In this document: positions 423-38,078 of the stretch, in pieces
How the letters are laid out: every line of letters starts with the position of its first letter
Numbering within the stretch: the first letter of the stretch is position 1
Assembly (NCBI GenBank): GCA_009695015.1
Contig: SIBT01000001.1
Span: 1-39,005 of the forward strand
Direction of reading: 5' to 3'
Length of the DNA stretch: 39,005 bases
Source: Candidatus Nomurabacteria bacterium
Lineage (GTDB): Bacteria; Patescibacteriota; Minisyncoccia; Phycocordibacterales; UBA9973
Program-made: the position numbers and the translations under genes
The notes under the pieces: model-generated
The model's database searches: none
The model's input: the letters and a program-made list of their open reading frames with translations, nothing else
Told to the model about the DNA's origin: nothing

Positions 423-1298
423 CTATTTAACAAAATATCTACTCCACCTCTTTTCTCCAGTTTTATTAAGAACACCATCTTTCATCATGGACATTAATTC
501 TCTTTGTAAAGTTTTCTCACTACAAGACACGAGTTGGATGGCTTGTTCTGGTGTTGATTGAATCATATCCTTTATGTCCTTTATGGTAGCATTGCCACCA
601 ATAATTTTAACAATCTTTATGATTTCATCTCTTCTTTGTTTTTTTAGTAAATCAAAATCTTGACTCCGTGAGGCAAGACCTAACATATTAGGTCTTGCCT
701 CTAAAGTATTGGACATAAGATAAGTTTTATCGGACAGAGCTTTCATTAAAGTACTTCCCTTTTGGACACCAATTCTAGTATGTCCTTTAGGATTTTCTTT
801 CCTCCTTATTGAGGAGGAAAGCTCCGACCAAGGTCGGAGTGAGGTGGTGATTTTAGAATTACCACCCCCCACCTCCTCCTTATCAAGGAGGAGTGGTTCA
901 GATAAAAACTCTTCGAGCCATCTAGGTTTAACTTGTCTAGATTCTTGTATAGAAACTTTTAGTTCTAGAAATTCTTTTTTAAGAATTTCGCAGTTCATTT
1001 CGGAGATAAAATTCATAGCGAAAGTAATATTTAAAAAGGACAAAACTTGATCTACTTTTTGAGTATCAAAGGTAACCCTTGTAAGATTCTGCATAGTCAA
1101 GTCCGATAGAATTTCTAATCCCAATGTCCTTAATTTATTCCTAAGTGGTTCATCTTTATCCAAGATGTCCGTTACCATATAAAGCGCTGTAATAAGCTTA
1201 TGAGTTTTCGTATAAGAAAGTGGAAAGGAGATGTCTTTTATAGAAATGTCCGTGTTAGTTTTAAAATCTTTTAGATTTTTATTGATGTCCTTATTCAT
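423..1298 (-). CDS. Hypothetical protein with a C-terminal winged-helix (DeoR/MarR-like) DNA-binding domain; putative transcriptional regulator
   Basis: The ORF in the track starts at a TTG at 1346; the first ATG (MNKDINKN) is at 1298, preceded by TATAAT. The C-terminus IIKIVKIIGGNATIKDIKDMI...SEKTLQRELMSMMKDGVLNKTGEKRWSRY looks like a wHTH. The N-terminal domain is unrecognised. Confidence 0.6.
   Translation of the reverse strand: MNKDINKNLKDFKTNTDISIKDISFPLSYTKTHKLITALYMVTDILDKDEPLRNKLRTLGLEILSDLTMQNLTRVTFDTQKVDQVLSFLNITFAMNFISEMNCEILKKEFLELKVSIQESRQVKPRWLEEFLSEPLLLDKEEVGGGNSKITTSLRPWSELSSSIRRKENPKGHTRIGVQKGSTLMKALSDKTYLMSNTLEARPNMLGLASRSQDFDLLKKQRRDEIIKIVKIIGGNATIKDIKDMIQSTPEQAIQLVSCSEKTLQRELMSMMKDGVLNKTGEKRWSRYFVK
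797..896. repeat. GC-rich cluster of four consecutive perfect hairpins, including two copies of a roughly 19-nt palindromic unit, embedded in the coding region
   Basis: Four stems: CTTTCCTCC/GGAGGAAAG (797-821); CTCCGACC/GGTCGGAG (822-839); GAGGTGG/CCACCTC (841-875); CTCCTCC/GGAGGAG (873-893). The units TCCTCCTTATTGAGGAGGA and TCCTCCTTATCAAGGAGGA differ only in their loops. Confidence 0.6.
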
Positions 1299-1510
1299 AG
1301 GTAATATCTGTCCATTATATATCGGACAAAGAAAAATGCAAGGCAAGATTAAGCTAGAATAGTTTTTTAAATGTCTTGCGTAGGAGCTTAGAAAACAAAA
1401 TCGGTACTTCGATTATTGTTTTCTTGAGCGACGGAGAGAGCAATTGTTCAGCAGAAAAATATGTGTGCATTTTAAAAATTATTTTTGACTAATCTTTTAC
1501 AAAAGAAATG

Positions 1511-3736: not shown

Positions 3737-4104
3737 ACAACAACGCAAAAAAAATATTACAAATAGGAGGTCTTTCTATTTTTTTTATGCTTATTATTAT
3801 CTATGCTTTTTTTCGCTCTCAAGATCTAATCTTTGGGGTGAAAATAAAAAATGTAATTATCGATAGCCTACCACTTCGTGGCAAAGTCACAGGTAGAACA
3901 AGAGTCGAAAATACAGTAATAGAAATATCAGGAAATACAACTAATGCAACAAATTTAACTTTAAACGGTCGAGAAATTTCAATAAATCAAGTCGGCAATT
4001 TCAACGAGACGATTGCACTCTTGTCGGGATATAATATAATCAATATTAAGGCAAAAGATAAGTTTGGATATATGGATGAAAAGAATTATCAGATTAATCA
4101 CTAG
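3733..4104 (+). CDS. Small membrane-anchored hypothetical protein (N-terminal TM plus a beta-rich, Ig-like ectodomain)
   Basis: ATGA start/stop overlap with ftsK. TM segment [20 protein letters not shown], followed by a beta-strand-like sequence ending [11 protein letters not shown]. Confidence 0.6.
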
Positions 4105-4111
4105 CAAGACA

Positions 4112-5170
4112 ATGTTAAAGAAAAAAGAAAAAAAAGAAGACAAGACTGTGGGTATAGCTGTATTAGAAGACACGCTGAAAGCAATTCAAACAAAATTTGG
4201 AGAGGGGTCAATCATGAAATTTGGCGATTCACCAAAAGTGGACATAAATGTGATACCCACCGGCTCCATTGGCCTCGACATGGCGCTAGGAGTAGGCGGA
4301 ATACCACGCGGTAGAATTATTGAAATATTCGGACCTGAATCTTCTGGAAAAACGACACTCTCCCTTCATATTGTGGCGGAAGCGCAAAAAAAGGGTGGAG
4401 TTTGCGCATATATAGACGCCGAACACGCGATGGATCCAGAATATACAAAAAAACTTGGAGTCAATATAAACAATCTGCTCATTTCCCAACCAGACAATGG
4501 CGAACAGGCGCTGGAAATTGTAGAGTCGCTAGTACGAACAGGAAAAATTGACGTAATAGTCATCGACTCTGTAGCGGCGCTCACTCCAAAAGACGAAATT
4601 GAAGGTGATATGGGCGCATACCATGTCGGTAAGCAAGCTCGCTTGATGTCTCAAGCGCTTCGCAAGCTCACCGCTATCGTCGCCAAATCTAAGACTGTGG
4701 TGATTTTTATCAATCAAATCAGAATGCAAATCGGGGTAATGTTTGGCAACCCTGAGACTACTCCGGGAGGAAAAGCGCTGAAATTTTACACTTCGGTGCG
4801 TCTCGATATTCGCAAAATCGCTCAGATAAAAAAAGGAGAGGATGTGGTAGGCAGTCGCACACGTGTAAAAGTAGTGAAAAATAAAGTGTCTGCCCCTTTC
4901 AAACAAACTGAATTTGATATTATTTACAATGAAGGCATTTCCAAAGAAGGTGAGATTATGGCGCTCGGAGAGAAATTTAAAATAATAGAAAAAACTGGAA
5001 ATTCATATTTTTACGTACCCGCCGAAACTTCGTTGAAGGTGGGTGATAAATCAGAGAATCTGAAACTAGGCGTAGGTTATGACGCTACCCGCACATTCTT
5101 GAAAGAAGATAAAAAAATATCTGACCAAATCTTAAAAGAAATCCGCAAGAAATTTGCCGAGGAAGTATAA
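4112..5170 (+). CDS. recA: Recombinase RecA
   Basis: [10 protein letters not shown] Walker [11 protein letters not shown] Walker [21 protein letters not shown] loop L2. The start is moved to the ATG at 4112, the first ATG after the upstream stop at 4102-4104. Confidence 0.96.
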
Positions 5171-5198
5171 CTTGTCAACCTGCCACGTCGACAAGTTT
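5171..5198 (+). terminator. Possible recA terminator hairpin
   Basis: CTTGTCAAC-CTGCCAC-GTCGACAAG (one mismatch) followed by TTTG. The U-tract is short. Confidence 0.35.
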
Positions 5199-5232
5199 GC
5201 AAAATAACCTTAAATTTGGTACTATGTTTCCT

Positions 5233-5811
5233 ATGTCAAAATTAGAATACAACGATATCCGCGAGAAGAAAATAATAATTTATAATGGTGAACCTTGTGA
5301 AGTCATCGAGTCGCATGTCGCACGCACTCAACAGCGAAAACCGCAAAATCAAGTGAAACTCAAAAGTCTCATCGCTGGCAAGACTATCGCCGCTACTTTT
5401 CACGTCTCCGAATCAGCCGACGAGGCAGACATCATTAAACGCGATATTACTTTCCTCTACCACAACAAAGGAGAATATTGGTTCTGTGATCCAAATGATA
5501 AAAGTAAAAGATTTAAATTAGATCTAGCGCTCATAGGCGACACTGCAAAATTTTTGAAACAAAACAGTAATGTGACCGCACTCATCTGGGAAGATAATGA
5601 AGTAGAAAAAATTATTAAAGTCACTCTGCCAATCAAAATAGAATTCAAAGTCAAAGAAGCTCCACCTGCAGTGCGCGGAGACACATCTAAAGGAGGCATT
5701 AAGGTTATAATTCTAGAAAATGGAGCGACTCTCAATGCTCCTATGTTTATAGCTCCTGGAGACGTAATCAGCGTAAATACAGAGACTGGAGAATACGTCG
5801 AAAGGATCTAA
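5233..5811 (+). CDS. efp: Elongation factor P
   Basis: Lines up by eye, without gaps over the first ~45 residues, with my recollection of E. coli EF-P from MSKLEYNDIR (NDxR, GEP, VKLK, VRGDTS, TGEYVERI). Alternative ATG at 5224; the track start at 5197 is a TTG. Confidence 0.9.
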   Translation: MSKLEYNDIREKKIIIYNGEPCEVIESHVARTQQRKPQNQVKLKSLIAGKTIAATFHVSESADEADIIKRDITFLYHNKGEYWFCDPNDKSKRFKLDLALIGDTAKFLKQNSNVTALIWEDNEVEKIIKVTLPIKIEFKVKEAPPAVRGDTSKGGIKVIILENGATLNAPMFIAPGDVISVNTETGEYVERI

Positions 5812-6632: not shown

Positions 6633-7145
6633 TTACACTGCAATCAACGCATCTATTTCTTTGTCTATTTCTTCTTCATTTATAGGAACAACAGTTTCAT
6701 TTTCCATACTTTTTGCTTTTGGTCTCCTATATGTCTCTCCACGTGTAAATCTTTTTACAGCAATAGTATTTTCTCTCAATGTCTTTAGTATCAAAAATCG
6801 AATAAAACTAGAGTCGAGATCAAGATGCTTTTTTAATTCTAAAATTTGCTCTGTGCCCATAACAAATTTAATCCAACCAAAATACGCCGTGTTGAATTTG
6901 CTACGTACATTAGATACAACCTTTTGCATAGGATAGGCAAGATTGGTCATTTTAGGCATCTCGTCCGTTATAATCTCGCCATTAAAAGATGTCACAAGTT
7001 CTTTTAGATTGCCATAATTTATGGCCACATCCTCATTTTTGATTGTCGGCACCAACAGGTAACCAAGCTCGTAGATCTTGGAATTTGTATCTGCTAAATT
7101 AGCATTATTAATTTTATTTTCGCTGTTTTGTTCGCTTGCCTGCAT
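6633..7145 (-). CDS. rpsF: 30S ribosomal protein S6, with N- and C-terminal extensions
   Basis: YELGYLLVP...LAYPMQK...AYFGWIKF core. Located upstream of ssb-rpsR, the conserved operon order. Confidence 0.8.
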   Translation of the reverse strand: MQASEQNSENKINNANLADTNSKIYELGYLLVPTIKNEDVAINYGNLKELVTSFNGEIITDEMPKMTNLAYPMQKVVSNVRSKFNTAYFGWIKFVMGTEQILELKKHLDLDSSFIRFLILKTLRENTIAVKRFTRGETYRRPKAKSMENETVVPINEEEIDKEIDALIAV

Positions 7146-7154
7146 GTGGATTTT

Positions 7155-7183
7155 ATATTAGCAAAAAGCTTTCAAAAAGTAAA
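7155..7183 (-). promoter_or_regulatory. Putative sigma70-type promoter for rpsF
   Basis: On the minus strand: TTTACT, 17 nt, TAATAT, with the -10 ending 9 nt before the ATG and no SD. This implies a leader of only 2-4 nt. Confidence 0.3.
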
Positions 7184-7193
7184 CCCCGACTCC

Positions 7194-8012
7194 TTAAATC
7201 CCAAACATTCGCTTGGCATTTGCGATAATAGCAAGAGACACTTCTTTTTCCGATAAATTTTTAATTTCCGCAATTTTTTTCACAATTTCTTTTACATAAA
7301 TAGGCTCATTGCGCTTACCACGATAAGGAACGGGAGTTATGTATGGAGAATCTGTCTCGGACATAATCATATCAAGTGGTGTATTCCGTACAACCTCATC
7401 ATAATCATGAGTGAATGTGATAACTCCTGTAAAAGACAAAGTGAAGCCAAAATCCAAAAATGCTTTCGCCTCCTCCCATGTTCCAGCAAAGAAATGCACA
7501 TTACCCTTTACTTTCGCATGCTCTTTTAGAATTTTAATTGCATCTTCATAAGCATTTCTAATGTGCAACATGAGTGGCTTATTAAATTCATTTGCGAATT
7601 CTATCTGTTCTATAAAAGCTTCTTTCTGTTTTGAGATTGATTCGGATGTACATCTATAATAATCTAGACCACATTCTCCTATGCCGATTATTTTTTTATC
7701 TTTTAAAAGTTCTCGATAAGATTCTTTGTCGAAAATTTCTCCACGCGAGGTGAATTCTTTACCACCTTCACCCAACTCTTTCTCGTCATGATATGAAGCA
7801 CCAGTATGTATCGGATGCAGTCCTATAATCGCATAGACTCCTTCGGGATATTGATTCGCTATTTCTATTGCCTTTCTTGAAGTATCTATTTGTGTGCCGA
7901 CATTTATAACCCAAGTATTACCATCTAGTGCACGACGAATAACATCGTCTCGATCTGCATCAAAAGCTTTGAAATTTACGTGACTGTGTATGTCTATGTA
8001 TTTTGGAGTCAT
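7194..8012 (-). CDS. tatD: TatD-family metal-dependent hydrolase/DNase
   Basis: IDIHSHVNF, GECGLDYY, PLMLHIRNA, ETDSPY motifs. Good SD (GAGGAAGGA). metG-tatD adjacency as in Firmicutes. Confidence 0.9.
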   Translation of the reverse strand: MTPKYIDIHSHVNFKAFDADRDDVIRRALDGNTWVINVGTQIDTSRKAIEIANQYPEGVYAIIGLHPIHTGASYHDEKELGEGGKEFTSRGEIFDKESYRELLKDKKIIGIGECGLDYYRCTSESISKQKEAFIEQIEFANEFNKPLMLHIRNAYEDAIKILKEHAKVKGNVHFFAGTWEEAKAFLDFGFTLSFTGVITFTHDYDEVVRNTPLDMIMSETDSPYITPVPYRGKRNEPIYVKEIVKKIAEIKNLSEKEVSLAIIANAKRMFGI

Positions 8013-8059
8013 GATTTATTTCCTTCCTCTCTTTTGAGGAGAAAGTTGGGGTTAAATTC

Positions 8060-9532
8060 CTAATCCTTTCGTAAAAACAAAGGCTTCTCTGGAGCTCTGT
8101 TTTCTTTGATTAATTTTTTTATCTCTAATGAAGTTTCAGGTAAAATAGAAATCAACATTCGTCTTATAGAATTTAGCTTAATCACCAAATCAGTTATAAT
8201 TTTTCTCCCAGCTTCTTTATCTTTTTTTATAAGTTTAAACGGCTCTGTTTCTTGAATAATCTGGTCTAATTGTCCAATTTGTAGCCAGATGTAATCACAA
8301 GCTTTTTTTATTTCAAAATTATTAAGAAATTCAAAATAAGTTTCCATATTTTCCCGTTCTGGAATAGTAACTGGTACACTTAAATTATCTTGTGACATTT
8401 TCATAATCCTACTCACTAAATTCCCCAACCCATTCGCCAAATTTGCATTATACGCCTCTTTAAAACGCTCCATCGTAAACGGACTATCTTCAAATGAAGA
8501 AATTTCTCGCAGAAGAAAATAACGTAGAGCATCTGTGCCATACTGAGATACAATATCATTCGGATTTACTACATTCCCGAGAGATTTAGACATTTTTATT
8601 CCACCCTCGCGTGTTATAAAACCATGGTAGATGATTTTATTAGTCGTCGGCATACCAGCAGACATGAGCATGCCTTGCCACATGACTGATTGAAATTTAA
8701 CCATATCTTTACCAGCGATTTGGACCGTGTCTCCCTCTTGCCAAAATTTTTCAAAAAGATTTTCGCCATCTCCCTTCGGGAGATGGCTGGGTTGAGGGTT
8801 CGGCCACCCTAAAGTCGAAATATAATTTATAAAAGCACCGAACCAAACATACATAACCTGTGTATCATCCCCTGGTATTGGCACCCCCCAAGAAAAACGT
8901 TTTTTGTCGCGAGAAATTGAAAAATCTTCCATGCCATCTTTCACAAAATCAATAGCTTCTTTTCTTCTCCACTCTGGAAATATAACCTCTTCATCTGAGA
9001 GATATTCTAAAAGCTGTTTTTTATAGTTACTCAATCTAAAAAAATAATTTTCTTCCTCAACCATCTCAGGTTTCAAAGTTGGATGAAGAGAACACAACCC
9101 CTCTATCAAATCCTTCTCTGTAATGAATCTCTCACATCCAACACAATAAAATCCTCTATATATCTTTTTGTAGATATCCCCTTTTTTATCACACAAAATC
9201 CAAAATTCCTGACACGCCCTCACGTGTTCCTTACTTGTTGTCCTAATAAAATTATTATACGAAAGGTTTAGTGTGTTCTTAAGCTCCAAAAACTTTTGCG
9301 CATAATAATCCACATATTCTATTATATTTTTACCTTCCCTCTCACTCGCTTCCAAAATCTTTTGACCATATTCATCCGTGCCAGTGCTAAAAAAAACATC
9401 TTTGCCTATCAGACGCTGGTACCGCGCAATCGCATCTGCTTGCACTAATTCTAATGCAAAACCAATATGAGGATCCGCATTTATGTAAGGAATCGTAGTT
9501 GTAATGTAAAAAGACTTTTTTTCTTTACTCAT
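8060..9532 (-). CDS. metG: Methionyl-tRNA synthetase (short form, no C-terminal tRNA-binding domain)
   Basis: TTIPYINADPHIGF (HIGH region), GTDEYGQKI, Cys knuckle CVGCERF...C, KMSKSLGNVV. Confidence 0.93.
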   Translation of the reverse strand: MSKEKKSFYITTTIPYINADPHIGFALELVQADAIARYQRLIGKDVFFSTGTDEYGQKILEASEREGKNIIEYVDYYAQKFLELKNTLNLSYNNFIRTTSKEHVRACQEFWILCDKKGDIYKKIYRGFYCVGCERFITEKDLIEGLCSLHPTLKPEMVEEENYFFRLSNYKKQLLEYLSDEEVIFPEWRRKEAIDFVKDGMEDFSISRDKKRFSWGVPIPGDDTQVMYVWFGAFINYISTLGWPNPQPSHLPKGDGENLFEKFWQEGDTVQIAGKDMVKFQSVMWQGMLMSAGMPTTNKIIYHGFITREGGIKMSKSLGNVVNPNDIVSQYGTDALRYFLLREISSFEDSPFTMERFKEAYNANLANGLGNLVSRIMKMSQDNLSVPVTIPERENMETYFEFLNNFEIKKACDYIWLQIGQLDQIIQETEPFKLIKKDKEAGRKIITDLVIKLNSIRRMLISILPETSLEIKKLIKENRAPEKPLFLRKD

Positions 9533-9545
9533 TATTATTTATCAA

Positions 9546-10619
9546 TTACTTATTACCAATTCGGGTTAAGGTTTTATTTTTTTCAAAATCGCTCAAACAT
9601 TCCATTACAACAACAGCTATCGGAATAGAAAGAATTGACCCCCAAACTCCACCCAACTCAAAACCAATCAAGACAGAAAGAATTATGACAATCGGTGAAA
9701 GACCCACGATACTTTTTATAAGAAGAGGGGTAAATAGAAAAACTTCAAATTGATGAATTATAAGGTAAGCTCCAGCAACCATTAGTGAATCAGATAATCC
9801 TCCAGAAAGATAAGAAACGGAAACAGCTGGAATAAGAGCAATCAAAGTGCCATAAGGAATAAGTCCCATTATTCCGGCAAGGATAGCAAAAAGAAGCGCA
9901 TATTGAATTCCTATAAGAGAAAGCACGAGATAAACTAAAACAGAATCAATAAGACCCAGAACAAGCTGTCCTTTGATCCAAAGAGCAATTTTACGACTCG
10001 AACGTTCCCATAAATTTATTATATAATTTTCGTACTGAATAGGTAAAATAATCCTTAAGAAATTTTCTATTCCTCTTTCTTGAACTGAAAGATAAAAAGA
10101 AATAATTATGATCAATACCACATTAAAAATGCTTCCGAAAGCAATAGAGAGAGTTTGAAAAAATCCTCCGGAAAGATTTAAAATAAAAGCCTTGGACACG
10201 GAGAAAAGTTCGGGAAGTGAAAAATCGCCCGAAAGAGAAGCGACGATATCTTTTGCTCCAGAAAATGCTTCATTTTGGAAATAATTAAAAAAGGAAATAT
10301 TTGGAATATAAGTCGAAATAAAAGTGGAAAAATTATAAATTTCAGTTATTAAAAGCGGAGCAAAAAGATAAAATAATCCAGCTAGAGTGAGGAGAGATAC
10401 ACTATATAAAATTACAGAACCAAAAACCCTATTAATTCCTATTTTTTTAAAGTAAGGAATAGATGATTCCACAAAAGTGGCTATCACAATTGAAGACACG
10501 ACCACTAAAATTAAATCCCGTAAAAACCAAAACAAAAAGACGCAAAGAATAACGAGAACTGCTCGAACCATCGTGCCAGTTGTTATCGAAATAGAAGTAA
10601 AAGGGTTACTTTCAGACAT
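9546..10619 (-). CDS. AI-2E family (PerM/UPF0118) membrane transporter
   Basis: Polytopic membrane protein of about 357 aa with the typical AI-2E layout. First ATG at 10619; the track start at 10652 is a TTG. Confidence 0.75.
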   Translation of the reverse strand: MSESNPFTSISITTGTMVRAVLVILCVFLFWFLRDLILVVVSSIVIATFVESSIPYFKKIGINRVFGSVILYSVSLLTLAGLFYLFAPLLITEIYNFSTFISTYIPNISFFNYFQNEAFSGAKDIVASLSGDFSLPELFSVSKAFILNLSGGFFQTLSIAFGSIFNVVLIIIISFYLSVQERGIENFLRIILPIQYENYIINLWERSSRKIALWIKGQLVLGLIDSVLVYLVLSLIGIQYALLFAILAGIMGLIPYGTLIALIPAVSVSYLSGGLSDSLMVAGAYLIIHQFEVFLFTPLLIKSIVGLSPIVIILSVLIGFELGGVWGSILSIPIAVVVMECLSDFEKNKTLTRIGNK

Positions 10620-15919: not shown

Positions 15920-18900
15920 TCAGATTTTATCAATTTTCACTTTAAATACTAAATCATCGATTTTAATTTCCTCCCCATCATTTTCGATAAATTTAATATC
16001 TCTCCCGCCAATTATTTTCAGAAAACTGTCTTTGAATTTATTTATTAAATTTTCTCCTACTTCATTTATTTTTATCGAAAGCGAAATTGTATCACTCGGG
16101 AGAAGTCTCATTTTCTTTCGCATTTCTTGCAAGGCTCTCACTAATTCTCGAAAATCTCCTTCTTGTTTTAATTCTTCTGTGATATTTGTGTCGAGCTCTA
16201 CTTCGTTTGAAATAGAATTATCAAAAATTATTTTTTTAACATTTAATTCTTCTTCAATTAAATCTAAATACTCACTTGATAACTTTCGACTTTCGATTTT
16301 CGACTTGAGTGAAGCGAGTGGCTGACGAACTTTCACGCCTGCCTTTTGACGAGCTTCTAGGCCCAGAGTCACGATTTTTCTGACTGTTTGCATATTAGTT
16401 AGAACTTTATCGCCTACGCGACTAAACACATCTAGAATTCCCTTGGAAACACTAGGCCATTCTACCAAATGCACACTTTCTGCATCATCTTCATACTTCA
16501 ATTTCAACCAAATATCTTCTGCCGTAAACGGCGCAAAAGGAGCGGTAATTTTTGCTAAAGTTTTTAAAACAAAATACAAAGTTTGCCTCGCATCTTTATC
16601 CCCTCCCTTTATTCGATCGCGTGAACGACGCAAATACCAAGTGGAGAGATCTCCGATAAAATCCCTTACACCTCGTACCGGCTCAAGCAATTTATAATTA
16701 TCCAGATTTTCGGTAGAAAGTTTTACCAATTCATCAAGTCGAGCCAGAATCCATTGATCTAAAATATTTTTAGATTTTGCTGGAATATTTTTCTCTAAAT
16801 TTTTATCTCGATAAAGTTCGTAAAATGCCAGCACATTGTAAAGTAAACCAAAAACTTGACTCGCAAGTAACGCAACTGTCTTTTCGTCAAAATTTTTAGA
16901 TTCGCCTGGTTGGTTGACCGAATACATCCACAGGCGAAGCGTATCAACACCGTATTTTTCCATCATGATCCACGGATCGACGACGTTACCGATTGATTTC
17001 GACATCTTTTTGCCATTAGCGTCGAGCAGATGCCCAAGACAAATTACATTTTTATACGAGAGTCCCCGCCCCATCAAAATGCCAACCGCATGCAAAGTAT
17101 AAAACCATCCACGAGTCTGATCGATTGCTTCACAAATAAAATCAGCTGGATATAAAATTTCTCGAGAATTAAAAGGATAATGATCTTGCGCAAAAGGCAT
17201 CGCGCCAGAATCAAACCAAACATCCATGACTTCTTTTGTGCGTATTAAATCTCCACCACAATGACACCTGAGAGTAATTTTATCAATATATGGTCGGTGT
17301 AAATCAAGCTCGTAATTTTCATTATGAGGAAGAGGAATAAATTCGTGCTCTATATGCAGAGATGCCGTTTTGTTTTTCATTTGTGAGTGGAAAATTTCCA
17401 ATGAGCGTTTTTGATTAGCATTTTCAATTATAGCAGGTATTAATTCCACAGAGAGTCCATGTGAAATAATAAGGATTGTTTCGTCTTGATATTTCTGATC
17501 AATATCATGCAAGAAATCTCCGATCCTATTCTTGCCATCTTGAAAACTTTCTCCTCCTGGAATTTTTTTATCAAATTCCCAAGTTTTGTCTTTCATAAAA
17601 TCCCAATATTCCGCAACTGGACGGTCCGAAAAATCTCCAAATTCTAATTCACGAATTCTATCATCGTAAATAATTTGATCTTTCGGAAAATTATTCTGTT
17701 CAGTAAATATTTCCGCTGTCTCTCGCGTACGCAAAAATGGAGAACAGTAAATTTTGGTAATTTTCTTATTTTTTAGTTCTTGGCAAGTTTTTAAAACCTC
17801 AGCTTTCCCTTTATCTGTCAAATGATTTATCTTTTGATTAGAAGAATAAATATTTTTCGCATTATTTTCTGCCTCACCGTGTCGCATCACAAAATATTTA
17901 TTGCCAGATTTTTTAGTTTTATCTTTCAAATCTGCGATACTTCCTAAAACTTCTACTTTTTTACAAGAAACACACTGCCAGACTGGTAGTGGTGTCCCCC
18001 AATATCGCTCACGAGATATCGCCCAATCTTTAATCTCACGCAACCATTCACCAAAACGTCCATCTCGTATGTGAATAGGTTCCCAATTTATTTCTTTGTT
18101 TTCACTAATTAATTTTTCCTTTATTTTTGGATCTGACATTTTTATATACCAAGAATCTCGCGCATAATAAATGAGCGCAGTATGACAACGCCAGCAATGT
18201 GGATATGAGTGTTTGTAATTTTCCTGTTTGAAAAATAAATTTCTTTTCTTTAGATCTTCAATAATATCCACAGCTAGTGTCGGCTTGCCATTTATATCGA
18301 CTTCTTTGACAAACCTGCCTTCTAAAAACTCAGTACCGTTTACAAATTTACCTTCGAGATTTACTAAGTGATGCTTTGGTAAACCAACCTTGGTACCAAG
18401 CTCGAAGTCATCTTGCCCATACATCACCGCTGTATGCACTATACCTGTGCCGTCTGTTGTATTTACAAAATCCGCTTCGTAAATTTTATATGCTTTATTT
18501 AATTTTTCTTTTTCTCCATCAGAAACTAAATTTGTAATGAATAGATATAATGGCTCGTATTCCATACCCACCATATCCTTACCTTTATGTTCAGCTATTA
18601 TTTCATAAGGTTCAGAAATTATAGAAAGTCGTTCTTTGGCAAGGACAAAAATTTCTTCTCCTATTTTTATCTCCACATAATCTATATCTTTGCCGACTGC
18701 GAGGGCGACATTCCCCGGCAATGTCCAAGGAGTAGTGGTCCACGCGAGAAAATACGCTTTCAAAAATCCAACTATAGGGAATTTCACATATACCGACAAA
18801 TCTTTCACATCTTCATACCCCTGCGCAAGCTCATGACTGGAAAGAGTCGTACCGCACCTCGGACACCATGGCACAACTTTATAATCCTTGTAAAGCAAAT

Positions 18901-19447
18901 TCTGGTCATTTATTTTTTTGACCACATTCCATACAGATTCGATATAATCATTTTGATAAGTCACATACGGATGCTCTTGATCAGCCCAATAGCCCATTCG
19001 CTTGGTGAAATTTTTCCATAATTCAATGTACTCCCAGACGCTGTCTTTGCACAATTTATTAAAAGCTGCAATACCATAATTTTCAATATCTGTTTTTGAT
19101 TTAAACCCAAGCTTTTTTTCTATCTGTAATTCGACAGGTAACCCATGCGTATCCCAACCACCCTTCCTGCGCACATGATACCCTCGCATTGTTTTATAAC
19201 GAGGAATAACATCTTTAAAAGCAAAAGGTGCCATCGTATGTAAAACTGGTTTGGAGTTTGTTGTGACTGGACCATCATAAAAAACAAATTCCCCTTTGGG
19301 CGAATCTTTTTGTAAAGATTTTTCAAAAATTTTATTCTCTTTCCAGAATTGCAAAACAGTTTCCTCACGTTTTGCCATGTCGGAGCTACCAGCGGAGACT
19401 GGAAGTGCTACATCGAATTTTCTATTTTCTTCTTGGTTATTTCCCAT
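15920..19447 (-). CDS. ileS: Isoleucyl-tRNA synthetase (type 2) with an inserted histidine-phosphatase (PGAM-like) domain
   Basis: [24 protein letters not shown] (CP1 editing), [23 protein letters not shown], KMSKS. The insert spans aa ~517-705 with KYFVMRHGE ... ILIISHG. A T-box with an Ile codon lies upstream. Confidence 0.93.
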   Translation of the reverse strand: [1175 protein letters not shown]

Positions 19448-19727: not shown

Positions 19728-20108
19728 TCAGATTGTGAATACTGGATCGTGTTTCAATTTCTGAATGATCCAGTTAAAAAAATAATTCAAGGCAATTGTA
19801 ATTGCCTGGCTCATTCTGACGAGCAGTAGAAATTTATCTTTTTCTACCGTTTCAGGTGCCATCTTTTCCATTGGCATCTCTAACGCCAGATGAACCAAAA
19901 CATAGAAAGACCTTTCTGGTTTGAAAATGTCAATGTCCATCGTTAGCTTCTCCAAAAAACCTCTGTAAAATTTCTTGGCGTGGACAATATGGTCACGCGC
20001 GTGACCATAAATTACACACAAATCTTCTTGAGAAAGACTAGTGCCTTGTTTCAGAAAAGATGCTACAGCCACAAGAGTAGGACAATCCGATCCTCTTACT
20101 AAATTCAT
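19728..20108 (-). CDS. Hypothetical protein, 126 aa, no recognised family
   Basis: Intact ORF with its own 168-nt upstream region and its own terminator. Probably helical. Contains HARDHIVH (an Rx4H pattern). Confidence 0.55.
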   Translation of the reverse strand: MNLVRGSDCPTLVAVASFLKQGTSLSQEDLCVIYGHARDHIVHAKKFYRGFLEKLTMDIDIFKPERSFYVLVHLALEMPMEKMAPETVEKDKFLLLVRMSQAITIALNYFFNWIIQKLKHDPVFTI

Positions 20109-21692: not shown

Positions 21693-23453
21693 CTACATTT
21701 TCTTCGGTGCAACGATACCGAGCAGGTGCAAGCCAGTCTTTATTACGAAAGTAACAGCATACGTCAGAGCCACTTTGTATCCGGAAGTTTTGTCTTCTTT
21801 ACTCACAATCAAATTATTACCGTAAAAGCTATTGAAGGCGCGGGCAACTTCGATCAAATAATTTGCAATATAATGTGGTTCGTATTCTTTGGAAGCTCGC
21901 AAAACAACTTCTCCAAATTTGTACAACAATTTCTCTACTTCAAAAATCTCAACTCCAAATGCATGCGGATCCGGTAAAATATTTTCTTTTTGCGCTTTTT
22001 CTAAAATAGAATTCGCGCGAGCATGCGAGTATTGTAGATATGGACCAGAATCTCCTTCAAAAGAAATAGATCTTTCAAAATCATAAACGATATCTCCGCC
22101 AGTTGATTGTTTTAGGATAGAATATTTTATTGCCGAGACAGCAACATCATCAGAAATCTTTTCCCTTTCTTCATTTCCAAATTCCCGGTCCGTCATCTTT
22201 TCTAAAACCAAATCACGAACGTCACTCAAAAGAGATTCACCTGTGATCACATTTTCTTTTCTCGAGCTCATCTTGCCACCCACGAAGCGCATCATGCCGT
22301 GCGTGATATGAAACATTTTCTTCTCATGTTCGGGATTAATCAGAGAGATAGCTTTAGCAACTACCTTCATATAATCCATCTGTTCGTTGGCAGTGACAAT
22401 GATAGATAAATTGAGACCCGGCTTTGTTTTAAATTTCTCTTCGGTGAGCCCGAGCTCCTTGGTCTCATAAGTAGATAAACCTTTGGATGTGATAAATACT
22501 CTAGTATGAAGTTTGGGATCGTATTTTTCAGCCTTGAAAACAATTGCATTATCAGATTCTTCAAAAATCATCTTGCTATGTGGAGCATCAATAACTTTAT
22601 CTAAATTATCTTTCACGATTCTCTCTCCAATCGGCGCCATCTGACTTTCTAAGAAATAAAAATCAAACTTTGTGCCGAGAATTTTATACAAATCCTCAAA
22701 AGCTTCCATCGTCGTCTTGAATCCCCAATCATATATTTCATTTATTTTTTTATCACTCTTGTCGTATATTTTCTTATTTATTTCATCTATTTCTATCTTA
22801 GCCTCCGAATTATTCTCGCATGCTTCTGACCCTTTCGCATAAGCTCTGCCAATATTTGCAGCTTGAAGCGTGCGCGTCCATTTTTTGTCTTGCAATTTAT
22901 CATTTTTCAAAAGTCCATAAATAGCCTTTGCCACATGCAATCCCACATCTCCCTGATAATTAACCCGAGATACTTCTGCGCCCGAGTGCGCCAAAATCCT
23001 CGCCACTGACTCCCCGATCGCATTCGTCATCAAATGCCCTATATGAAAAGGTTTGAAAGGATTGGGATCAGTGTACTCGATCATTATTTTTTTACCAGTA
23101 AGGACATCATTTTTCCCTATATTGTATCCTTGATTCAAAATTTCTTCCACACTTCGAGCAAAAAATTTGCGCGATAAATAAAAGTTTATAAACCCCGCGC
23201 CAGCAACTTGAATTTCCTGTATTTCAGGAAATTCACCGACAGTTTGTCGAAGAGTCGCAACAATCTTTTCAGCCAATTCTTTCGGGTTACTCTTCACATC
23301 CTTGGCGATAACTAAAGCAATGTTTGTAGAATAATCCCCCATCTTCAAATCTGCGGGATGTTCGAGAGCAATATCAGCAACTTCTATATCCAAATTTTTT
23401 AGAGCATCTTTTATTAAATTTTTTATTTTGTCTCCCATTTTTTTATAATACAT
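21693..23453 (-). CDS. argS: Arginyl-tRNA synthetase
   Basis: EYTDPNPFKPFHIGHLMTNAIG (HIGH), MSSRKENV (KMSKS-equivalent), DALR-type C-terminus ending in M. Alternative ATG at 23438. Confidence 0.93.
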   Translation of the reverse strand: MYYKKMGDKIKNLIKDALKNLDIEVADIALEHPADLKMGDYSTNIALVIAKDVKSNPKELAEKIVATLRQTVGEFPEIQEIQVAGAGFINFYLSRKFFARSVEEILNQGYNIGKNDVLTGKKIMIEYTDPNPFKPFHIGHLMTNAIGESVARILAHSGAEVSRVNYQGDVGLHVAKAIYGLLKNDKLQDKKWTRTLQAANIGRAYAKGSEACENNSEAKIEIDEINKKIYDKSDKKINEIYDWGFKTTMEAFEDLYKILGTKFDFYFLESQMAPIGERIVKDNLDKVIDAPHSKMIFEESDNAIVFKAEKYDPKLHTRVFITSKGLSTYETKELGLTEEKFKTKPGLNLSIIVTANEQMDYMKVVAKAISLINPEHEKKMFHITHGMMRFVGGKMSSRKENVITGESLLSDVRDLVLEKMTDREFGNEEREKISDDVAVSAIKYSILKQSTGGDIVYDFERSISFEGDSGPYLQYSHARANSILEKAQKENILPDPHAFGVEIFEVEKLLYKFGEVVLRASKEYEPHYIANYLIEVARAFNSFYGNNLIVSKEDKTSGYKVALTYAVTFVIKTGLHLLGIVAPKKM

Positions 23454-26915: not shown

Positions 26916-27509
26916 ATGAATAAATTTGAAGAAATAAAATTTAATATTGGAACATTAAAAGGAATCTCAGCGAAAAACATCGAAGAACATTTGAAACTCT
27001 ATGCAGGTTATGTGAAGCACTCTAATCTAGTACTAGAGAAGATTAACGAACTCGCTCAAGATGCTGAAAAAAATGCTTATGCATTGGGTGAAGTTCAGAG
27101 ACGATTCGGGTTTGAATACAATGGTATGAGGAATCACGAAGTTTATTTTGGATCCCTTTCCGGAGAGGCTAAAACTCCAACGAATGACAGTGAACTTAAA
27201 AAAGCAATCACGGCAGAATGGGGATCTTTTGAAATGTGGCTAAATCGCTTTAAATCTATCGCCCTTACTCGCGGTATTGGTTGGGTAATGCTTTACTATG
27301 ACCGAAAAGAAAAGCGTCTCCTTTTGACTTGGGTGGATGAACAACATTTTGGACAACTACAAGACTGCACTCTAGTCTTCGGACTAGATATGTGGGAACA
27401 TGCGTTTGTCTACGACTACCCTACTTCCGAAAAGAAAAAATACGTAGAAGCATTTTTTGAAAATCTAAATTGGGAAGTGATCGAAAATAATTTTAAAAAG
27501 GCTCAATAA
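26916..27509 (+). CDS. Fe/Mn superoxide dismutase family protein (divergent N-terminal motif)
   Basis: C-terminal GLDMWEHAFVYDY (D and H ligands) and NHEVYF. The N-terminal region has EEHLKLYAGYV instead of HHxKHHxxYV. SD AAGGA and TATAAT lie upstream. Confidence 0.75.
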   Translation: MNKFEEIKFNIGTLKGISAKNIEEHLKLYAGYVKHSNLVLEKINELAQDAEKNAYALGEVQRRFGFEYNGMRNHEVYFGSLSGEAKTPTNDSELKKAITAEWGSFEMWLNRFKSIALTRGIGWVMLYYDRKEKRLLLTWVDEQHFGQLQDCTLVFGLDMWEHAFVYDYPTSEKKKYVEAFFENLNWEVIENNFKKAQ

Positions 27510-35323: not shown

Positions 35324-35815
35324 TTAATAGCTACCTCGCAATACAATTGTATTATAAAAATTAACAGTTCGATTCAATGCATCATTTTTTGACCTGACTG
35401 TTAATAACATTTTAACAGCTTTTCCTTTTACTGTAGTCATCGGTGTAAAAGATAAAGTAGTTACAACTATGTTTGGTGTATTTAAATTTCCAACCAAGAC
35501 ACCATTTTCTAAGTAATTGATATCTGTGCCAGAAAGTACAAATTCGATAGTTCTATTCGGATCAGCAGCCCCCATAGTTGCACTTGGATCATCAGAGCTC
35601 AAATCATAAGACCCTCTGATTTCTCTAGACATTCTTTCCATAATCGATCCACTTCGCAATAATTCAGCTTGTATCATAGTCTCTCTAAATGCATGGGTCA
35701 TAATGATCATCGAATTGATCACAACTAGAGACAAAACAGCGAAAAAAGAAATATAAAAAAGAAGTTCCAAAATTACATAACCATTCTTTTTATTTTTTAT
35801 ATAAATTTTATTCAC
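35324..35815 (-). CDS. Prepilin-type N-terminal domain protein (PilW/GspJ-like minor pilin)
   Basis: Class III signal KNKKNG|YVILELL with Glu at +5. I place the start at the GTG at 35815, 7 nt after the upstream stop; the ATG at 35878 in the track overlaps the upstream gene. Confidence 0.7.
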   Translation of the reverse strand: MNKIYIKNKKNGYVILELLFYISFFAVLSLVVINSMIIMTHAFRETMIQAELLRSGSIMERMSREIRGSYDLSSDDPSATMGAADPNRTIEFVLSGTDINYLENGVLVGNLNTPNIVVTTLSFTPMTTVKGKAVKMLLTVRSKNDALNRTVNFYNTIVLRGSY

Positions 35816-35822
35816 GATTAAT

Positions 35823-36786: not shown

Positions 36787-36825
36787 AATTTCATTATATC
36801 ACTTTTAATTACGAAACTCATGAAA

Positions 36826-38043: not shown

Positions 38044-38078
38044 TGATATAAAGCTTCTTTCTATTTTTTAATAAACTT

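What the first reader, a model, noticed from the sequence alone, without database searches (positions are those of the whole stretch)
17312..17899. Histidine-phosphatase (PGAM-like) domain inserted in-frame inside the Zn knuckle of isoleucyl-tRNA synthetase
Over the segments I can recall, the 1175-aa ORF lines up by eye with type-2 (Thermus/eukaryote-like) IleRS. Between the two Cys pairs of the zinc knuckle (CVSC, aa 492-495; CHC, aa 728-730) the Thermus IleRS as I recall it has only a few tens of residues. Here that position holds a segment of about 190 aa. It starts KYFVMRHGEAENN and also contains SPFLRTRETA, RELEFGDF and ILIISHG. Those are the RHG...SHG catalytic signature of histidine phosphatase superfamily branch 1 (dPGM, CobC and SixA-like enzymes). 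Both catalytic His residues and the Arg residues are retained, so the domain looks enzymatically competent rather than decayed. The Zn site would clamp the N- and C-termini of the insert together, which makes it a structurally plausible place for a domain insertion. I do not know of a described IleRS with this architecture. Possible roles, all speculative: acting on phosphorylated tRNA 3' ends; hydrolysing a nucleotide by-product of IleRS; or supplying a phosphoglycerate mutase activity in a minimal genome (pgk and tpiA are in this window, but no gpm gene is seen).
Basis: partly seen in the sequence, partly recalled or inferred. Interest (0 to 1): 0.72.

Follow-up and report, generated by a model that had tools for sequence, protein, structure and literature searches.

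The report
Phosphatase domain built into isoleucyl-tRNA synthetase
This candidate-phyla bacterium's isoleucyl-tRNA synthetase carries a complete, apparently active histidine phosphatase inserted next to its catalytic core; related lineages encode the same phosphatase as the gene just upstream of ileS, so the two enzymes seem to work together, in a way nobody appears to have described.

Summary
ORF 15920-19447 (-) is a 1175-aa type-2 IleRS. Residues ~509-710 form a discrete His_Phos_1 domain (Pfam E=2.5e-30; AF2 pLDDT 94). It sits between Cys pairs that align with Thermus IleRS C461/C464 and C502/C504.

It is not an artefact. All 120 closest database homologues carry the domain, and the catalytic residues R522, H523, R573, E600 and H663 are invariant.

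New here:
- The closest free-standing relatives lie immediately upstream of an insert-less ileS, usually as argS-hp-ileS with a median 4-nt gap. This includes the cultured Minisyncoccus archaeiphilus.
- 72 of 80 related loci link the phosphatase to ileS: 33 inserted, 38 upstream, 1 adjacent on the opposite strand.
- Other lineages insert it at two further IleRS sites or duplicate it in tandem.
- ValRS of Gracilibacteria/Peregrinibacteria carries His_Phos_1 in the homologous loop.

The domain resembles PhoE/CobC/PspA phosphatases, not dPGM. M. archaeiphilus also has a separate gpmA, so the "missing PGM" idea is disfavoured.

Best reading: an active phosphomonoesterase partner of class Ia synthetases, now fused. 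Its substrate is unknown. No paper describing the architecture was found.

The parts
15920..19447 (-). ileS: 1175-aa type-2 isoleucyl-tRNA synthetase that hosts the insert
   Evidence: ORF. TIGR00392 scores 851 bits (cut-off 621). Pfam domains. PDB matches to 8c8w and 1ile at E~1e-226 to 1e-230.
17924..19447 (-). IleRS N-terminal part (aa 1-508): first half of the Rossmann fold, CP1 editing domain, and start of the second half
   Evidence: Aligns to 8c8w residues 11-475. Thermus editing-domain fragments 1wk8/1ue0 match aa 210-417.
19232..19249 (-). Class I signature motif position, here P-V-L-H-T-M (non-canonical 'VLHT' instead of HXGH or GXHH)
   Evidence: 36 of 120 homologues share it. No other reading frame encodes a canonical motif.
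17963..17974 (-). First Cys pair of the second Zn knuckle (C492-V-S-C495)
   Evidence: Aligns with T. thermophilus IleRS C461/C464. Cys in 96% of 120 homologues.
17318..17923 (-). Inserted histidine-phosphatase domain with its linkers (aa ~509-710). The finding's interval 17312-17899 is aa 517-712.
   Evidence: Gap against 8c8w and 1ile. AF2 model of aa 505-715 has pLDDT 94.1 and pTM 0.90. Foldseek top hits are PspA, CobC and PhoE.
17405..17893 (-). Pfam His_Phos_1 (PF00300) match, aa 519-681
   Evidence: E=2.5e-30, 106 bits, cut-off 21.7.
17876..17884 (-). R522-H523-G524: the RHG motif, with H523 the predicted phospho-accepting nucleophile
   Evidence: Invariant in 120 homologues. Invariant wherever aligned in the 34 inserted, 38 upstream and 9 other sequences of the 80 GTDB loci plus the window.
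17729..17731 (-). R573, second phosphate-pocket arginine (SPFLRTRET motif)
   Evidence: Invariant.
17648..17650 (-). E600, predicted general acid/base (RELEFG motif)
   Evidence: Invariant in 120 homologues. E or D in the stand-alone forms.
17459..17461 (-). H663, second catalytic histidine (ILIISHG motif)
   Evidence: Invariant.
17258..17266 (-). Second Cys pair of the Zn knuckle (C728-H-C730)
   Evidence: Aligns with T. thermophilus C502/C504. Cys in 96% of close homologues.
15920..17317 (-). IleRS C-terminal part (aa 711-1175): rest of the Rossmann fold with DVWFDSG and KMSKS (aa 814-818, nt 16994-17008), anticodon-binding domain, and type-2 C-terminal DUF5915 domain
   Evidence: KMSKS is intact in all 120 homologues.
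21693..23453 (-). argS, 2.2 kb upstream of ileS (context). In sister lineages the order is argS-phosphatase-ileS.
   Evidence: Pfam ArgRS domains. Operon statistics in related loci.

Best explanation
The segment encodes a complete, catalytically competent branch-1 histidine phosphatase. It is a PhoE/CobC/PspA-like phosphomonoesterase, not a phosphoglycerate mutase. It is spliced into the distal loop of the second Zn knuckle of a type-2 IleRS, in the second half of the Rossmann fold and about 100 residues before KMSKS.

It belongs to a phosphatase family that is a dedicated partner of the synthetase. In sister Patescibacteria the closest relatives are ~190-aa free-standing proteins encoded directly upstream of, and often overlapping, an insert-less ileS (argS-hp-ileS). 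In this lineage the partner has become covalently attached.

Inferred chemistry, from the family:
- H523 attacks a phosphomonoester held by R522, R573 and H663.
- E600 protonates the leaving group.
- The phospho-histidine intermediate is then hydrolysed.

This would be a second active site operating beside the aminoacylation site. The substrate is not shown. My preferred guess (about 0.3) is a phosphate on a macromolecule presented at the synthetic site. That could be a phosphorylated or pyrophosphorylated tRNA acceptor end, or a phosphorylated KMSKS-loop serine of the synthetase itself, so the domain would keep tRNA or enzyme chargeable. A small nucleotide-like phosphoester tied to the reaction is nearly as likely (about 0.25).
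For: Shown:
- Domain identity and fold.
- R522/H523/G524/R573/E600/H663 are invariant in 120 homologues, although the insert as a whole is only 51.5% identical against 72.2% for the rest of the protein. The same residues are kept in the 80 GTDB-species loci plus the window.
- Gene linkage; argS 3327-4994, hp 4997-5581, ileS from 5586, with no insert in that IleRS. Of the 80 loci, 33 have hp inserted in ileS, 38 have it upstream of ileS, 1 has it next to ileS on the other strand, and only 7 have no ileS in the flanks.
- In the upstream class the hp stop to ileS start distance has a median of 4 nt, and 28/38 are <=30 nt or overlapping. argS ends within 150 nt of hp in 32/38.
- The cultured M. 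archaeiphilus has overlapping ORFs hp 6989-7576 and ileS 7573-10533, which are MNSC_03170 and MNSC_03180.
- Repeated, independent attachment. There are three different insertion sites in IleRS plus tandem copies; nearly all of the 20 copies in multi-copy proteins keep the catalytic residues (one R641->Q; two partial copies lack some aligned positions).
- His_Phos_1 sits in the homologous DWxISR...DTWFSS loop of 69 of 119 ValRS homologues from Gracilibacteria/Peregrinibacteria.

Weak support for a polyanionic partner: the stand-alone forms are strongly basic (median pI 9.76, +7.2 charges per 100 aa, against +2.3 for neighbouring ORFs). The inserted forms are less so (+2.9), and the window's copy has net charge -3.
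Against: - No substrate evidence of any kind.
- The nearest characterised relatives are all small-molecule phosphatases.
- The relative geometry of the two active sites could not be obtained. The full-length AF2 model has pTM 0.53 and a poorly predicted Rossmann core, and no coordinates are available.
- The charge signal is modest: 22% of neighbouring ORFs are as basic.
- NJ trees do not resolve whether insertion happened once or several times at site 1.
- Two insert-less valS loci show no adjacent phosphatase.
- Operon conservation in reduced genomes can persist without direct functional coupling.
- No PADLOC defence-system match.
Confidence: 0.6

Rival explanations
1. Hitch-hiking metabolic enzyme. 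The domain is an ordinary metabolic phosphatase or a cofactor-dependent phosphoglycerate mutase with no mechanistic link to aminoacylation. It is fused to or co-transcribed with ileS only to secure expression in a streamlined genome.
For: - The best NCBIfam partial hit is archaeal dPGM NF038349, at 88 bits.
- No gpm gene is in the window, although pgk and tpiA are.
- Jaffe et al. 2020 (PMC7304191) report PGM as undetected in several shallow Parcubacteria clades, possibly because it is too divergent.
- All close structural relatives act on small molecules.
Against: - NF038349 scores 88 against a cut-off of 225. gpmA-type models match only the N-terminal 60-100 residues: TIGR01258 31 against 81.7, and dPGM chains in the PDB about 35-40 bits.
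- The RE(L/I)xFGxF...PGGES motifs are of the PhoE/CobC type.
- M. archaeiphilus has a separate gpmA, MNSC_05730 (K01834 score 279, COG0588), besides the ileS-linked MNSC_03170 (K01834 score 23, COG0406).
- Simple hitch-hiking would predict terminal fusions to assorted genes. What is seen is internal insertion at three IleRS sites, tandem copies and a parallel insertion in ValRS.
Confidence: 0.17
2. Small-molecule housekeeping at the synthetase. The phosphatase hydrolyses a nucleotide-type phosphoester produced by, or inhibitory to, IleRS/ValRS. Candidates are AMP or other mononucleotides, a side product, or a phosphorylated aminoacyl-adenylate mimic. Tethering gives it local access.
For: - Family precedent for nucleotide-like and sugar-phosphate substrates: CobC, the riboflavin-pathway HFP 9mmh, Shb17 and TIGAR are among the best structural hits.
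- A subset of homologues adds a C-terminal HD phosphohydrolase whose weak nearest matches are the 5'-nucleotidases HDDC2 and YfbR.
- A cap subregion typical of small-molecule enzymes is present in most copies.
Against: - No direct evidence.
- IleRS-specific phosphorylated inhibitors are not known to me.
- Hydrolysing AMP would be wasteful for organisms that depend on nucleotide salvage.
- Seven of 120 close homologues have a shortened, 171-aa insert, apparently lacking much of the cap.
Confidence: 0.25
3. Non-catalytic module. The histidine-phosphatase fold has been co-opted as a structural, tRNA-binding or regulatory ligand-sensing domain, and phosphatase chemistry is irrelevant.
For: - Appended aaRS domains are often RNA-binding.
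- Some ValRS copies have lost E600 or H663 equivalents: E in 57 of 82 and H in 71 of 82.
- The stand-alone forms are basic.
Against: The whole catalytic set is invariant in the 120 IleRS homologues and nearly so across the stand-alone forms (E600 is D in 13 of 38) and the multi-copy forms (one R641->Q), even though the domain otherwise evolves faster than the rest of the protein.
Confidence: 0.05
4. Assembly or annotation artefact: a chimeric contig or a frameshift joining separate genes.
For: Some database relatives are fragments from frameshift-rich long-read contigs.
Against: - One uninterrupted ORF in the window.
- The same architecture is found in more than 100 independent assemblies from NCBI, JGI, ENA and Logan.
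- The junction sequences KKSGNKYFVMRHG and F.PLPHN.NYELDLHRPY are conserved.
Confidence: 0.01

Closest known systems
Type-2 (eukaryote/Thermus-like, mupirocin-resistant type) IleRS, e.g. T. thermophilus IleRS (1ILE) and P. megaterium IleRS2 (8C8W)
   Same: - Full collinear match outside the insert: Rossmann fold, CP1 editing domain, KMSKS, anticodon-binding domain and type-2 C-terminal domain.
- The four Cys align with the Thermus C461/C464/C502/C504 cluster.
   Different: - About 200 extra residues forming an enzyme domain sit inside the knuckle loop, where 8c8w has about 7.
- The signature motif is VLHT rather than HXGH or the G/AXHH described by Brkic et al. 2023.
Broad-specificity branch-1 histidine phosphatases: PhoE/YhfR (1H2E), CobC alpha-ribazole phosphatase (6NRU, 6E4B), Hydrogenobacter phosphoserine phosphatase PspA (4IJ5)
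   Same: - Fold: Foldseek E 6e-13 to 3e-10, TM about 0.7.
- Profile scores of 70-77 bits.
- RHG...R...E...H catalytic set and the PGGES cap motif.
   Different: - Those enzymes are free-standing and have no reported link to a synthetase.
- None of their NCBIfam equivalog cut-offs is reached: CobC 85 against 163, PspA 74 against 350.
- The N-x-Y-F lead-in to RHG is conserved in this ileS-linked family.
Free-standing versus inserted accessory domains of synthetases, e.g. the ProRS INS editing domain and its stand-alone YbaK/ProXp relatives (from general knowledge of the field, not tested here)
   Same: The same module occurs either as a separate protein or inserted in the catalytic domain of the synthetase in different lineages. 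That is the pattern seen here for the phosphatase.
   Different: Those modules are aminoacyl-tRNA deacylases with a clear role in fidelity. This one is a phosphomonoesterase, a chemistry with no known role in aminoacylation.
Other catalytic add-ons: 'ileS_w_GNAT' (NCBIfam NF040702), and the bifunctional RNase H/acid phosphatase of the Rv2228c type (NF005567)
   Same: - NF040702 shows that IleRS with an extra enzymatic domain is a recognised annotation class.
- NF005567 is a precedent for a CobC-like histidine phosphatase fused to a nucleic-acid enzyme. It matches the insert at 70 bits.
   Different: - Different partner domain (GNAT) or a different host enzyme (RNase H).
- Neither model's cut-off is reached: 314 against 1999, and 70 against 326.

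Membership tests
Isoleucyl-tRNA synthetase (NCBIfam TIGR00392 ileS, type 2) | Whole-protein score above the curated equivalog cut-off | tested here: met
   851.3 bits against 621.4.
Isoleucyl-tRNA synthetase (NCBIfam TIGR00392 ileS, type 2) | KMSKS loop | tested here: met
   KMSKS at aa 814-818, present in all 120 homologues.
Isoleucyl-tRNA synthetase (NCBIfam TIGR00392 ileS, type 2) | Canonical class I HXGH signature motif, or the known IleRS2 variant G/AXHH | tested here: not met
   Window has V-L-H-T at aa 68-71, shared by 36 of 120 homologues, while 68 have GIHH. The known variants are described in PMC10485003. The rest of the protein is unambiguous IleRS, so this is a variant motif rather than a reason for exclusion.
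Isoleucyl-tRNA synthetase (NCBIfam TIGR00392 ileS, type 2) | CP1 editing domain, anticodon-binding domain and type-2 C-terminal domain | tested here: met
   Thermus editing-domain fragments match aa 210-417. Anticodon_1 at 897-1044 and DUF5915 at 1046-1174.
Isoleucyl-tRNA synthetase (NCBIfam TIGR00392 ileS, type 2) | Isoleucine-specific aminoacylation activity | not testable with these tools
   Needs an enzyme assay.
Histidine phosphatase superfamily, branch 1 (Pfam PF00300) | Score above the gathering threshold | tested here: met
   106 bits against 21.7, aa 519-681.
Histidine phosphatase superfamily, branch 1 (Pfam PF00300) | RHG nucleophile motif, second Arg, acid Glu, and second His | tested here: met
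   R522, H523, G524, R573, E600 and H663 are present and invariant in 120 homologues.
Histidine phosphatase superfamily, branch 1 (Pfam PF00300) | Alpha/beta phosphoglycerate-mutase-like fold | tested here: met
   AF2 pLDDT 94.1. Foldseek probability 1.0 to 4ij6, 6nru, 1h2e and others.
Histidine phosphatase superfamily, branch 1 (Pfam PF00300) | Phosphatase or mutase activity | not testable with these tools
   Needs an enzyme assay.
2,3-BPG-dependent phosphoglycerate mutase (gpmA; TIGR01258, NF010713 etc.; archaeal NF038349) | Score above the curated cut-off and a full-length match | tested here: not met
   TIGR01258 scores 31 against 81.7 (residues 4-68 only). NF010713 scores 27 against 305. 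NF038349 scores 88 against 225. dPGM PDB chains match only profile positions ~9-114.
Alpha-ribazole phosphatase CobC (TIGR03162) / phosphoserine phosphatase PspA (NF045917) / SixA (TIGR00249) | Score above the equivalog cut-off | tested here: not met
   85 against 162.9, 74 against 350, and 43 against 74.5. These are the closest relatives, but membership is not established.
Second Zn knuckle of Thermus-type IleRS | Four Cys ligands at conserved positions | tested here: met
   C492/C495/C728/C730 align to C461/C464/C502/C504 of 1ile. That these bind Zn in Thermus is from my memory of Nureki et al. 1998.
Second Zn knuckle of Thermus-type IleRS | Metal actually bound, and required for hosting the insert | tested here: inconclusive
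   Metal binding is not testable here. Of 56 diverse insert-bearing representatives, 30 have lost both Cys pairs, so the knuckle is dispensable for the architecture.

The most novel reading that the evidence does not exclude
Class Ia synthetases of candidate-phyla bacteria carry a built-in or operon-encoded 'repair' phosphatase. It would remove inhibitory phosphates placed at the aminoacylation site by conflict systems. Two known precedents for such phosphates are:
- 3'-pyrophosphorylation of the tRNA CCA end by toxSAS enzymes (bioRxiv 10.1101/2021.04.30.441581; PMC11559606).
- Phosphorylation of class I synthetases by HipA/HipT-type kinases (PMC6581861).

If so, this would be a new, cis-acting layer of protection for translation, evolved repeatedly in IleRS and ValRS.
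Probability: 0.2. Interest if true: 0.9.

Novelty: new variant of a known kind. Interest (0 to 1): 0.72.

Why it matters
Aminoacyl-tRNA synthetases are among the best-studied enzymes, and phosphomonoester hydrolysis has no known place in their reaction cycle.

Here an apparently active phosphatase has been tied to IleRS in several ways:
- as a translationally coupled neighbour gene;
- by insertion at three different sites;
- in tandem copies;
- in parallel in ValRS.

This spans large parts of the Patescibacteria. That argues for an unrecognised step or vulnerability in aminoacylation in these reduced, host-dependent bacteria.

It also matters for metabolic reconstruction. This domain and its stand-alone orthologue attract 'phosphoglycerate mutase' labels: MNSC_03170 has K01834 as its listed KO match at a very low score and a UniRef90 name of 2,3-BPG-dependent phosphoglycerate mutase. 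Such labels could create false glycolysis calls.

Because a cultured organism (M. archaeiphilus) has the two-gene version, the question is directly testable.

Tried and rejected
- Insert-only word-index search. It returned only 18 hits, mostly fragments, and wrongly suggested rarity. The full-length search and the exhaustive profile search corrected this.
- Fragmentary hits P0007 and P0010. They come from frameshift-rich contigs, not from split genes.
- Context of distant stand-alone His_Phos_1 proteins P0014, P0016, P0018 and P0012. These are non-CPR or unrelated neighbourhoods and gave nothing informative.
- Broad stand-alone alignment A4.
- NJ trees of IleRS and of the phosphatase. Inserted and upstream states are interleaved and the branches are long. 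The number of insertion events at site 1 is unresolved, so I make no claim.
- Full-length AF2. pTM is 0.53 and the Rossmann core falls below pLDDT 50, so it is unusable for inter-domain geometry. Only the insert is confident.
- valS neighbourhoods in two insert-less relatives. No adjacent phosphatase was found.
- PADLOC, Rfam and tRNA scan. All returned nothing.
- Promoter/terminator scan around ileS. Nothing above the shuffled expectation.
- Charge analysis. Suggestive only.
- PGM hypothesis: considered and down-weighted.
- Artefact hypothesis: rejected.
Full report
1. THE OBSERVATION

The window is a whole 39,005-nt contig of a Candidatus Nomurabacteria (Patescibacteria) MAG. Its IleRS is found verbatim in the public protein collection as P0019. 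ORF 15920..19447 on the minus strand encodes 1175 aa.

Pfam finds tRNA-synt_1 in two stretches (best-scoring one aa 31-516), His_Phos_1 at aa 519-681 (E=2.5e-30, 106 bits against a threshold of 21.7), Anticodon_1 and DUF5915. NCBIfam calls the protein ileS: TIGR00392 scores 851 bits against a cut-off of 621.

Against solved structures the protein aligns collinearly with P. megaterium IleRS2 (8c8w) and T. thermophilus IleRS (1ile), except that query residues ~509-710 have no counterpart. With the insert deleted, C492/C495 and C728/C730 align with Thermus C461/C464 and C502/C504. As I recall from Nureki et al. 1998, those four are the ligands of the second zinc of that enzyme. Thermus has 37 residues between the pairs and the query has 232. 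The insert replaces the tip of the hairpin (Thermus ...ELKARATKPLPEPFDPHRPY...; query ...DLK[insert]PLPHNENYELDLHRPY...).

2. NOT AN ARTEFACT, AND NOT DECAYED

All 120 best full-length homologues carry PF00133 plus PF00300. They are 63-75% identical, come from NCBI, JGI, ENA and Logan assemblies, and sit on contigs up to 813 kb.

Within them the insert is 51.5% identical to the window's copy on average, against 72.2% for the rest of the protein. Even so, R522, H523, G524, T544, G547, S569, R573, T577, E600, R641 and H663 are invariant, and N529 is 99% conserved. That is the full catalytic apparatus of branch-1 histidine phosphatases.

An AlphaFold2 model of aa 505-715, built on a 130-sequence alignment, has mean pLDDT 94.1 and pTM 0.90, so it is a discrete alpha/beta domain.

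3. WHAT KIND OF HISTIDINE PHOSPHATASE

Foldseek against the PDB ranks the hits as follows:
- Hydrogenobacter phosphoserine phosphatase PspA (4ij5/4ij6; E 6e-13, TM 0.75);
- yeast Shb17;
- CobC alpha-ribazole phosphatases;
- the riboflavin-pathway phosphatase 9mmh;
- mycobacterial GpgP;
- PhoE;
- TIGAR.

Genuine dPGMs rank lower. A profile of the insert scores 70-77 bits on PspA, CobC and PhoE. It scores only ~35-40 bits on dPGMs, over the N-terminal half. No NCBIfam equivalog cut-off is reached: dPGM_arch 88 against 225, CobC 85 against 163, PspA 74 against 350, SixA 43 against 74.5, pgm_1 31 against 82. The domain is therefore a PhoE/CobC-type phosphomonoesterase of undetermined specificity, not a recognisable mutase.

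4. THE DECISIVE CONTEXT: A ROSETTA-STONE PATTERN

An exhaustive HMMER search with an insert profile over 1.84 billion cluster representatives found 263 proteins at E<=1e-30. Of the best 150, 98 are IleRS, one is a ValRS, and 50 show no synthetase flank: these are ~185-215-aa stand-alone proteins or fragments, 32-45% identical to the insert.

One stand-alone protein (P0236) is encoded between argS and an insert-less ileS: argS 3327-4994, hp 4997-5581, ileS from 5586. A second (P0006) has the same arrangement.

Scanning one genome per GTDB species with six stand-alone sequences returned 80 loci, nearly all Patescibacteria. They include Staskawicz-, Nealson-, Nomura-, Taylor-, Sung-, Lloyd- and Harrisonbacteria, Minisyncoccales, and the complete genome of the cultured Minisyncoccus archaeiphilus PMX.108. 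Classifying them with tblastn gives:
- 33 with the phosphatase inserted inside ileS;
- 30 with it as a separate gene <400 nt upstream of a contiguous ileS;
- 8 upstream with one intervening gene;
- 1 beside ileS on the other strand;
- 1 at a contig end after argS;
- 7 with no ileS in the flanks.

In the upstream class the hp stop to ileS start distance has a median of 4 nt, and 28 of 38 are <=30 nt or overlapping. argS ends within 150 nt of hp in 32 of 38. In M. archaeiphilus the ORFs overlap by 4 nt: 6989-7576 and 7573-10533. They are annotated MNSC_03170 and MNSC_03180. The catalytic residues are conserved in the stand-alone forms too.

The stand-alone arrangement occurs with two divergent IleRS subtypes, which suggests it is the older state. 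My NJ trees, however, do not resolve how many times insertion at this site occurred.

5. REPEATED ATTACHMENT

Other lineages attach the same kind of domain differently:
- tandem duplication at the knuckle site (P0176, P0217, P0224, P0275);
- insertion after the DSGxMP motif (query ~aa 758-767; P0190, P0196);
- insertion at the start of the anticodon-binding domain (query ~aa 881-893; P0190, P0196, P0232).

Nearly all of these copies keep RHG...R...E...H; the exceptions are one R641->Q and two partial copies that lack some aligned positions.

The top hit of the profile search, P0139, is a ValRS with four copies. Searching with it showed that 69 of the 119 closest ValRS homologues carry His_Phos_1. 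These come from Gracilibacteria, Peregrinibacteria and unclassified MAGs, on contigs up to 1.37 Mb. In the 42 His_Phos_1-bearing ValRS homologues examined, the domain nearly always lies between DWCISRQxWWGHxIPVW and DTLDTWFSS, which is the loop homologous to the IleRS knuckle; five proteins carry a copy before the DWxISR motif, one of them only there.

The ValRS copies score a median of only 65 bits on the IleRS-insert model, no closer than PspA or PhoE. Some have lost the Glu or the second His. I therefore read this as an independent, convergent recruitment.

Among 56 diverse IleRS representatives with the knuckle-site insert, 30 have lost both Cys pairs.

6. MECHANISM

Shown: a complete, conserved phosphatase active site, and tight, recurrent genetic and physical linkage to IleRS and ValRS.

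Inferred from the family: H523 accepts the phosphoryl group from a monoester held by R522, R573 and H663. E600 acts as the general acid/base. Water then releases phosphate.

Inferred from the linkage: the enzyme works with the synthetase rather than merely beside it. Hitch-hiking would favour terminal fusions to arbitrary partners. It would not favour internal insertions near the catalytic core of two paralogous synthetases, at several sites, plus a translationally coupled two-gene form.

The substrate is unknown. Weak hints towards a polyanionic or macromolecular partner:
- The stand-alone forms are very basic: median pI 9.76 and +7.2 charges per 100 aa, against +2.3 for neighbouring ORFs.
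- The charge relaxes once the domain is tethered: +2.9 per 100 aa, and net -3 in the window's copy.
- Seven of 120 close homologues have a shortened (171-aa) insert, apparently missing much of the cap subregion.

My leading guess (about 0.3) is removal of a phosphate that blocks aminoacylation. Two precedents exist. toxSAS enzymes pyrophosphorylate tRNA CCA ends (10.1101/2021.04.30.441581; PMC11559606). HipA/HipT kinases phosphorylate class I synthetases (PMC6581861). A nucleotide-type small molecule is almost as likely (about 0.25). That reading fits the small-molecule relatives and the extra C-terminal HD phosphohydrolase in ~1300-1365-aa homologues.

The phosphoglycerate-mutase idea is disfavoured, for the reasons in section 3 and because M. 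archaeiphilus has a separate bona fide gpmA. That gene is MNSC_05730 (K01834 score 279, COG0588); the ileS-linked MNSC_03170 scores only 23 on K01834 and falls in COG0406. The idea is not excluded for this genome. No gpm gene is in the window, and PGM is reported as undetected in some Parcubacteria clades (PMC7304191).

I could not obtain the geometry of the two active sites. The full-length AF2 model has pTM 0.53 and a badly predicted Rossmann core.

7. COMPARISON AND NOVELTY

The host is an ordinary type-2 IleRS apart from the insert and an unusual signature motif. The guest is an ordinary PhoE/CobC-like phosphatase. The combination, and above all the neighbour-or-insert pattern across Patescibacteria with its ValRS parallel, is what is new.

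Full-text searches found no paper linking IleRS with a histidine phosphatase or PGAM domain. Two recent evolutionary surveys of IleRS mention neither a phosphatase nor Patescibacteria (PMC10485003 and bioRxiv 10.64898/2026.02.03.703510). The proteins are already in databases under generic names such as 'class I tRNA ligase family protein', so the sequences are not new, but the biology appears to be undescribed.

I rate it a new variant of a known kind (synthetases with accessory catalytic modules), interest 0.72.

8. VERDICT

The best explanation, at confidence about 0.6, is an active phosphomonoesterase that is a dedicated partner of class Ia synthetases and is fused in this lineage. The specific substrate remains to be found.

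Noticed in passing
window 19232-19249 (-), IleRS aa 67-72: The class I signature motif is P-V-L-H-T-M ('VLHT'), not HXGH and not the G/AXHH variant described for mupirocin-hyper-resistant IleRS2. Among the 120 closest homologues, 68 have GIHH, 36 have VLHT, 6 have ALHH and 1 has canonical HIGH. No alternative frame encodes a canonical motif, so it is real and the fourth-position His is lost.
   Followed up: partly
relatives P0288-P0406 (ValRS of Gracilibacteria/Peregrinibacteria-type MAGs); P0139 = L090 366-3851: 69 of the 119 closest ValRS homologues carry one to three His_Phos_1 domains. In those examined the domain nearly always lies between DWCISRQ...IPVW and DTLDTWFSS, the loop homologous to the IleRS insertion site. 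Five have a copy before DWxISR (one of them only there). P0139 has four copies but comes from a 2x-coverage contig.
   Followed up: partly
relatives P0190, P0196, P0232, P0176, P0217, P0224, P0275: IleRS variants of 1007-1468 aa carry two phosphatase domains. These are either in tandem at the knuckle site, or at a second site (after DSGxMP, query ~aa 758-767) and a third site (start of the anticodon-binding domain, query ~aa 881-893).
   Followed up: partly
relatives P0043, P0053, P0054, P0059, P0065, P0070, P0074, P0083, P0084, P0107, P0119: IleRS homologues of ~1300-1365 aa have both the phosphatase insert and an additional divergent HD phosphohydrolase domain replacing the C-terminal end, after query aa ~1146. 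Its weak nearest matches are the 5'-nucleotidases HDDC2 and YfbR.
   Followed up: partly
relative P0254 (1066 aa): An IleRS-like protein shows an IS200-type Y1 transposase domain inside the N-terminal part, a His_Phos_1 domain and a C-terminal GNAT acetyltransferase. It may be a chimeric or degraded gene. NCBIfam also has an 'ileS_w_GNAT' model.
   Followed up: no
L072 (Minisyncoccus archaeiphilus NZ_AP038758.1) 6989-10533; PMC12281837 supplement: The ileS-linked stand-alone phosphatase MNSC_03170 is labelled 2,3-BPG-dependent phosphoglycerate mutase through UniRef and through a K01834 score of only 23. The genome's true gpmA is MNSC_05730. Such labels could inflate glycolysis calls in Patescibacteria.
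   Followed up: partly
window 19728-20108 (-), 33528-35288 (-), 35324-35878 (-), 35823-36299 (-), 423-1346 (-): These ORFs of 126-586 aa have no Pfam family. The 126-aa ORF lies between the Pif1-like helicase gene and ileS, where relatives have the phosphatase gene or nothing.
   Followed up: no
window 36319-39005 (-): A type IV pilus / type II secretion gene set runs to the contig end: a pilin-like protein with an N-methylation motif, a T2SS-F platform protein and a T2SS-E ATPase.
   Followed up: no
window 3733-4104 and 4064-5170 (+): The mechanically called TTG start of recA overlaps the preceding 123-aa ORF (weak Glucodextran_B match) by 41 nt. The RecA Pfam match begins at residue 33, so the real start is probably further downstream.
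   Followed up: no
window 26916-27509 (+): An Fe/Mn superoxide dismutase gene lies on the opposite strand to its neighbours. This is notable for a lineage usually described as anaerobic.
   Followed up: no
whole window: No tRNA gene and no Rfam family at gathering score, so there is no recognisable T-box or other leader upstream of ileS, argS or metG. Four synthetase genes (metG, a class II synthetase gene, ileS, argS) lie within 16 kb.
   Followed up: partly
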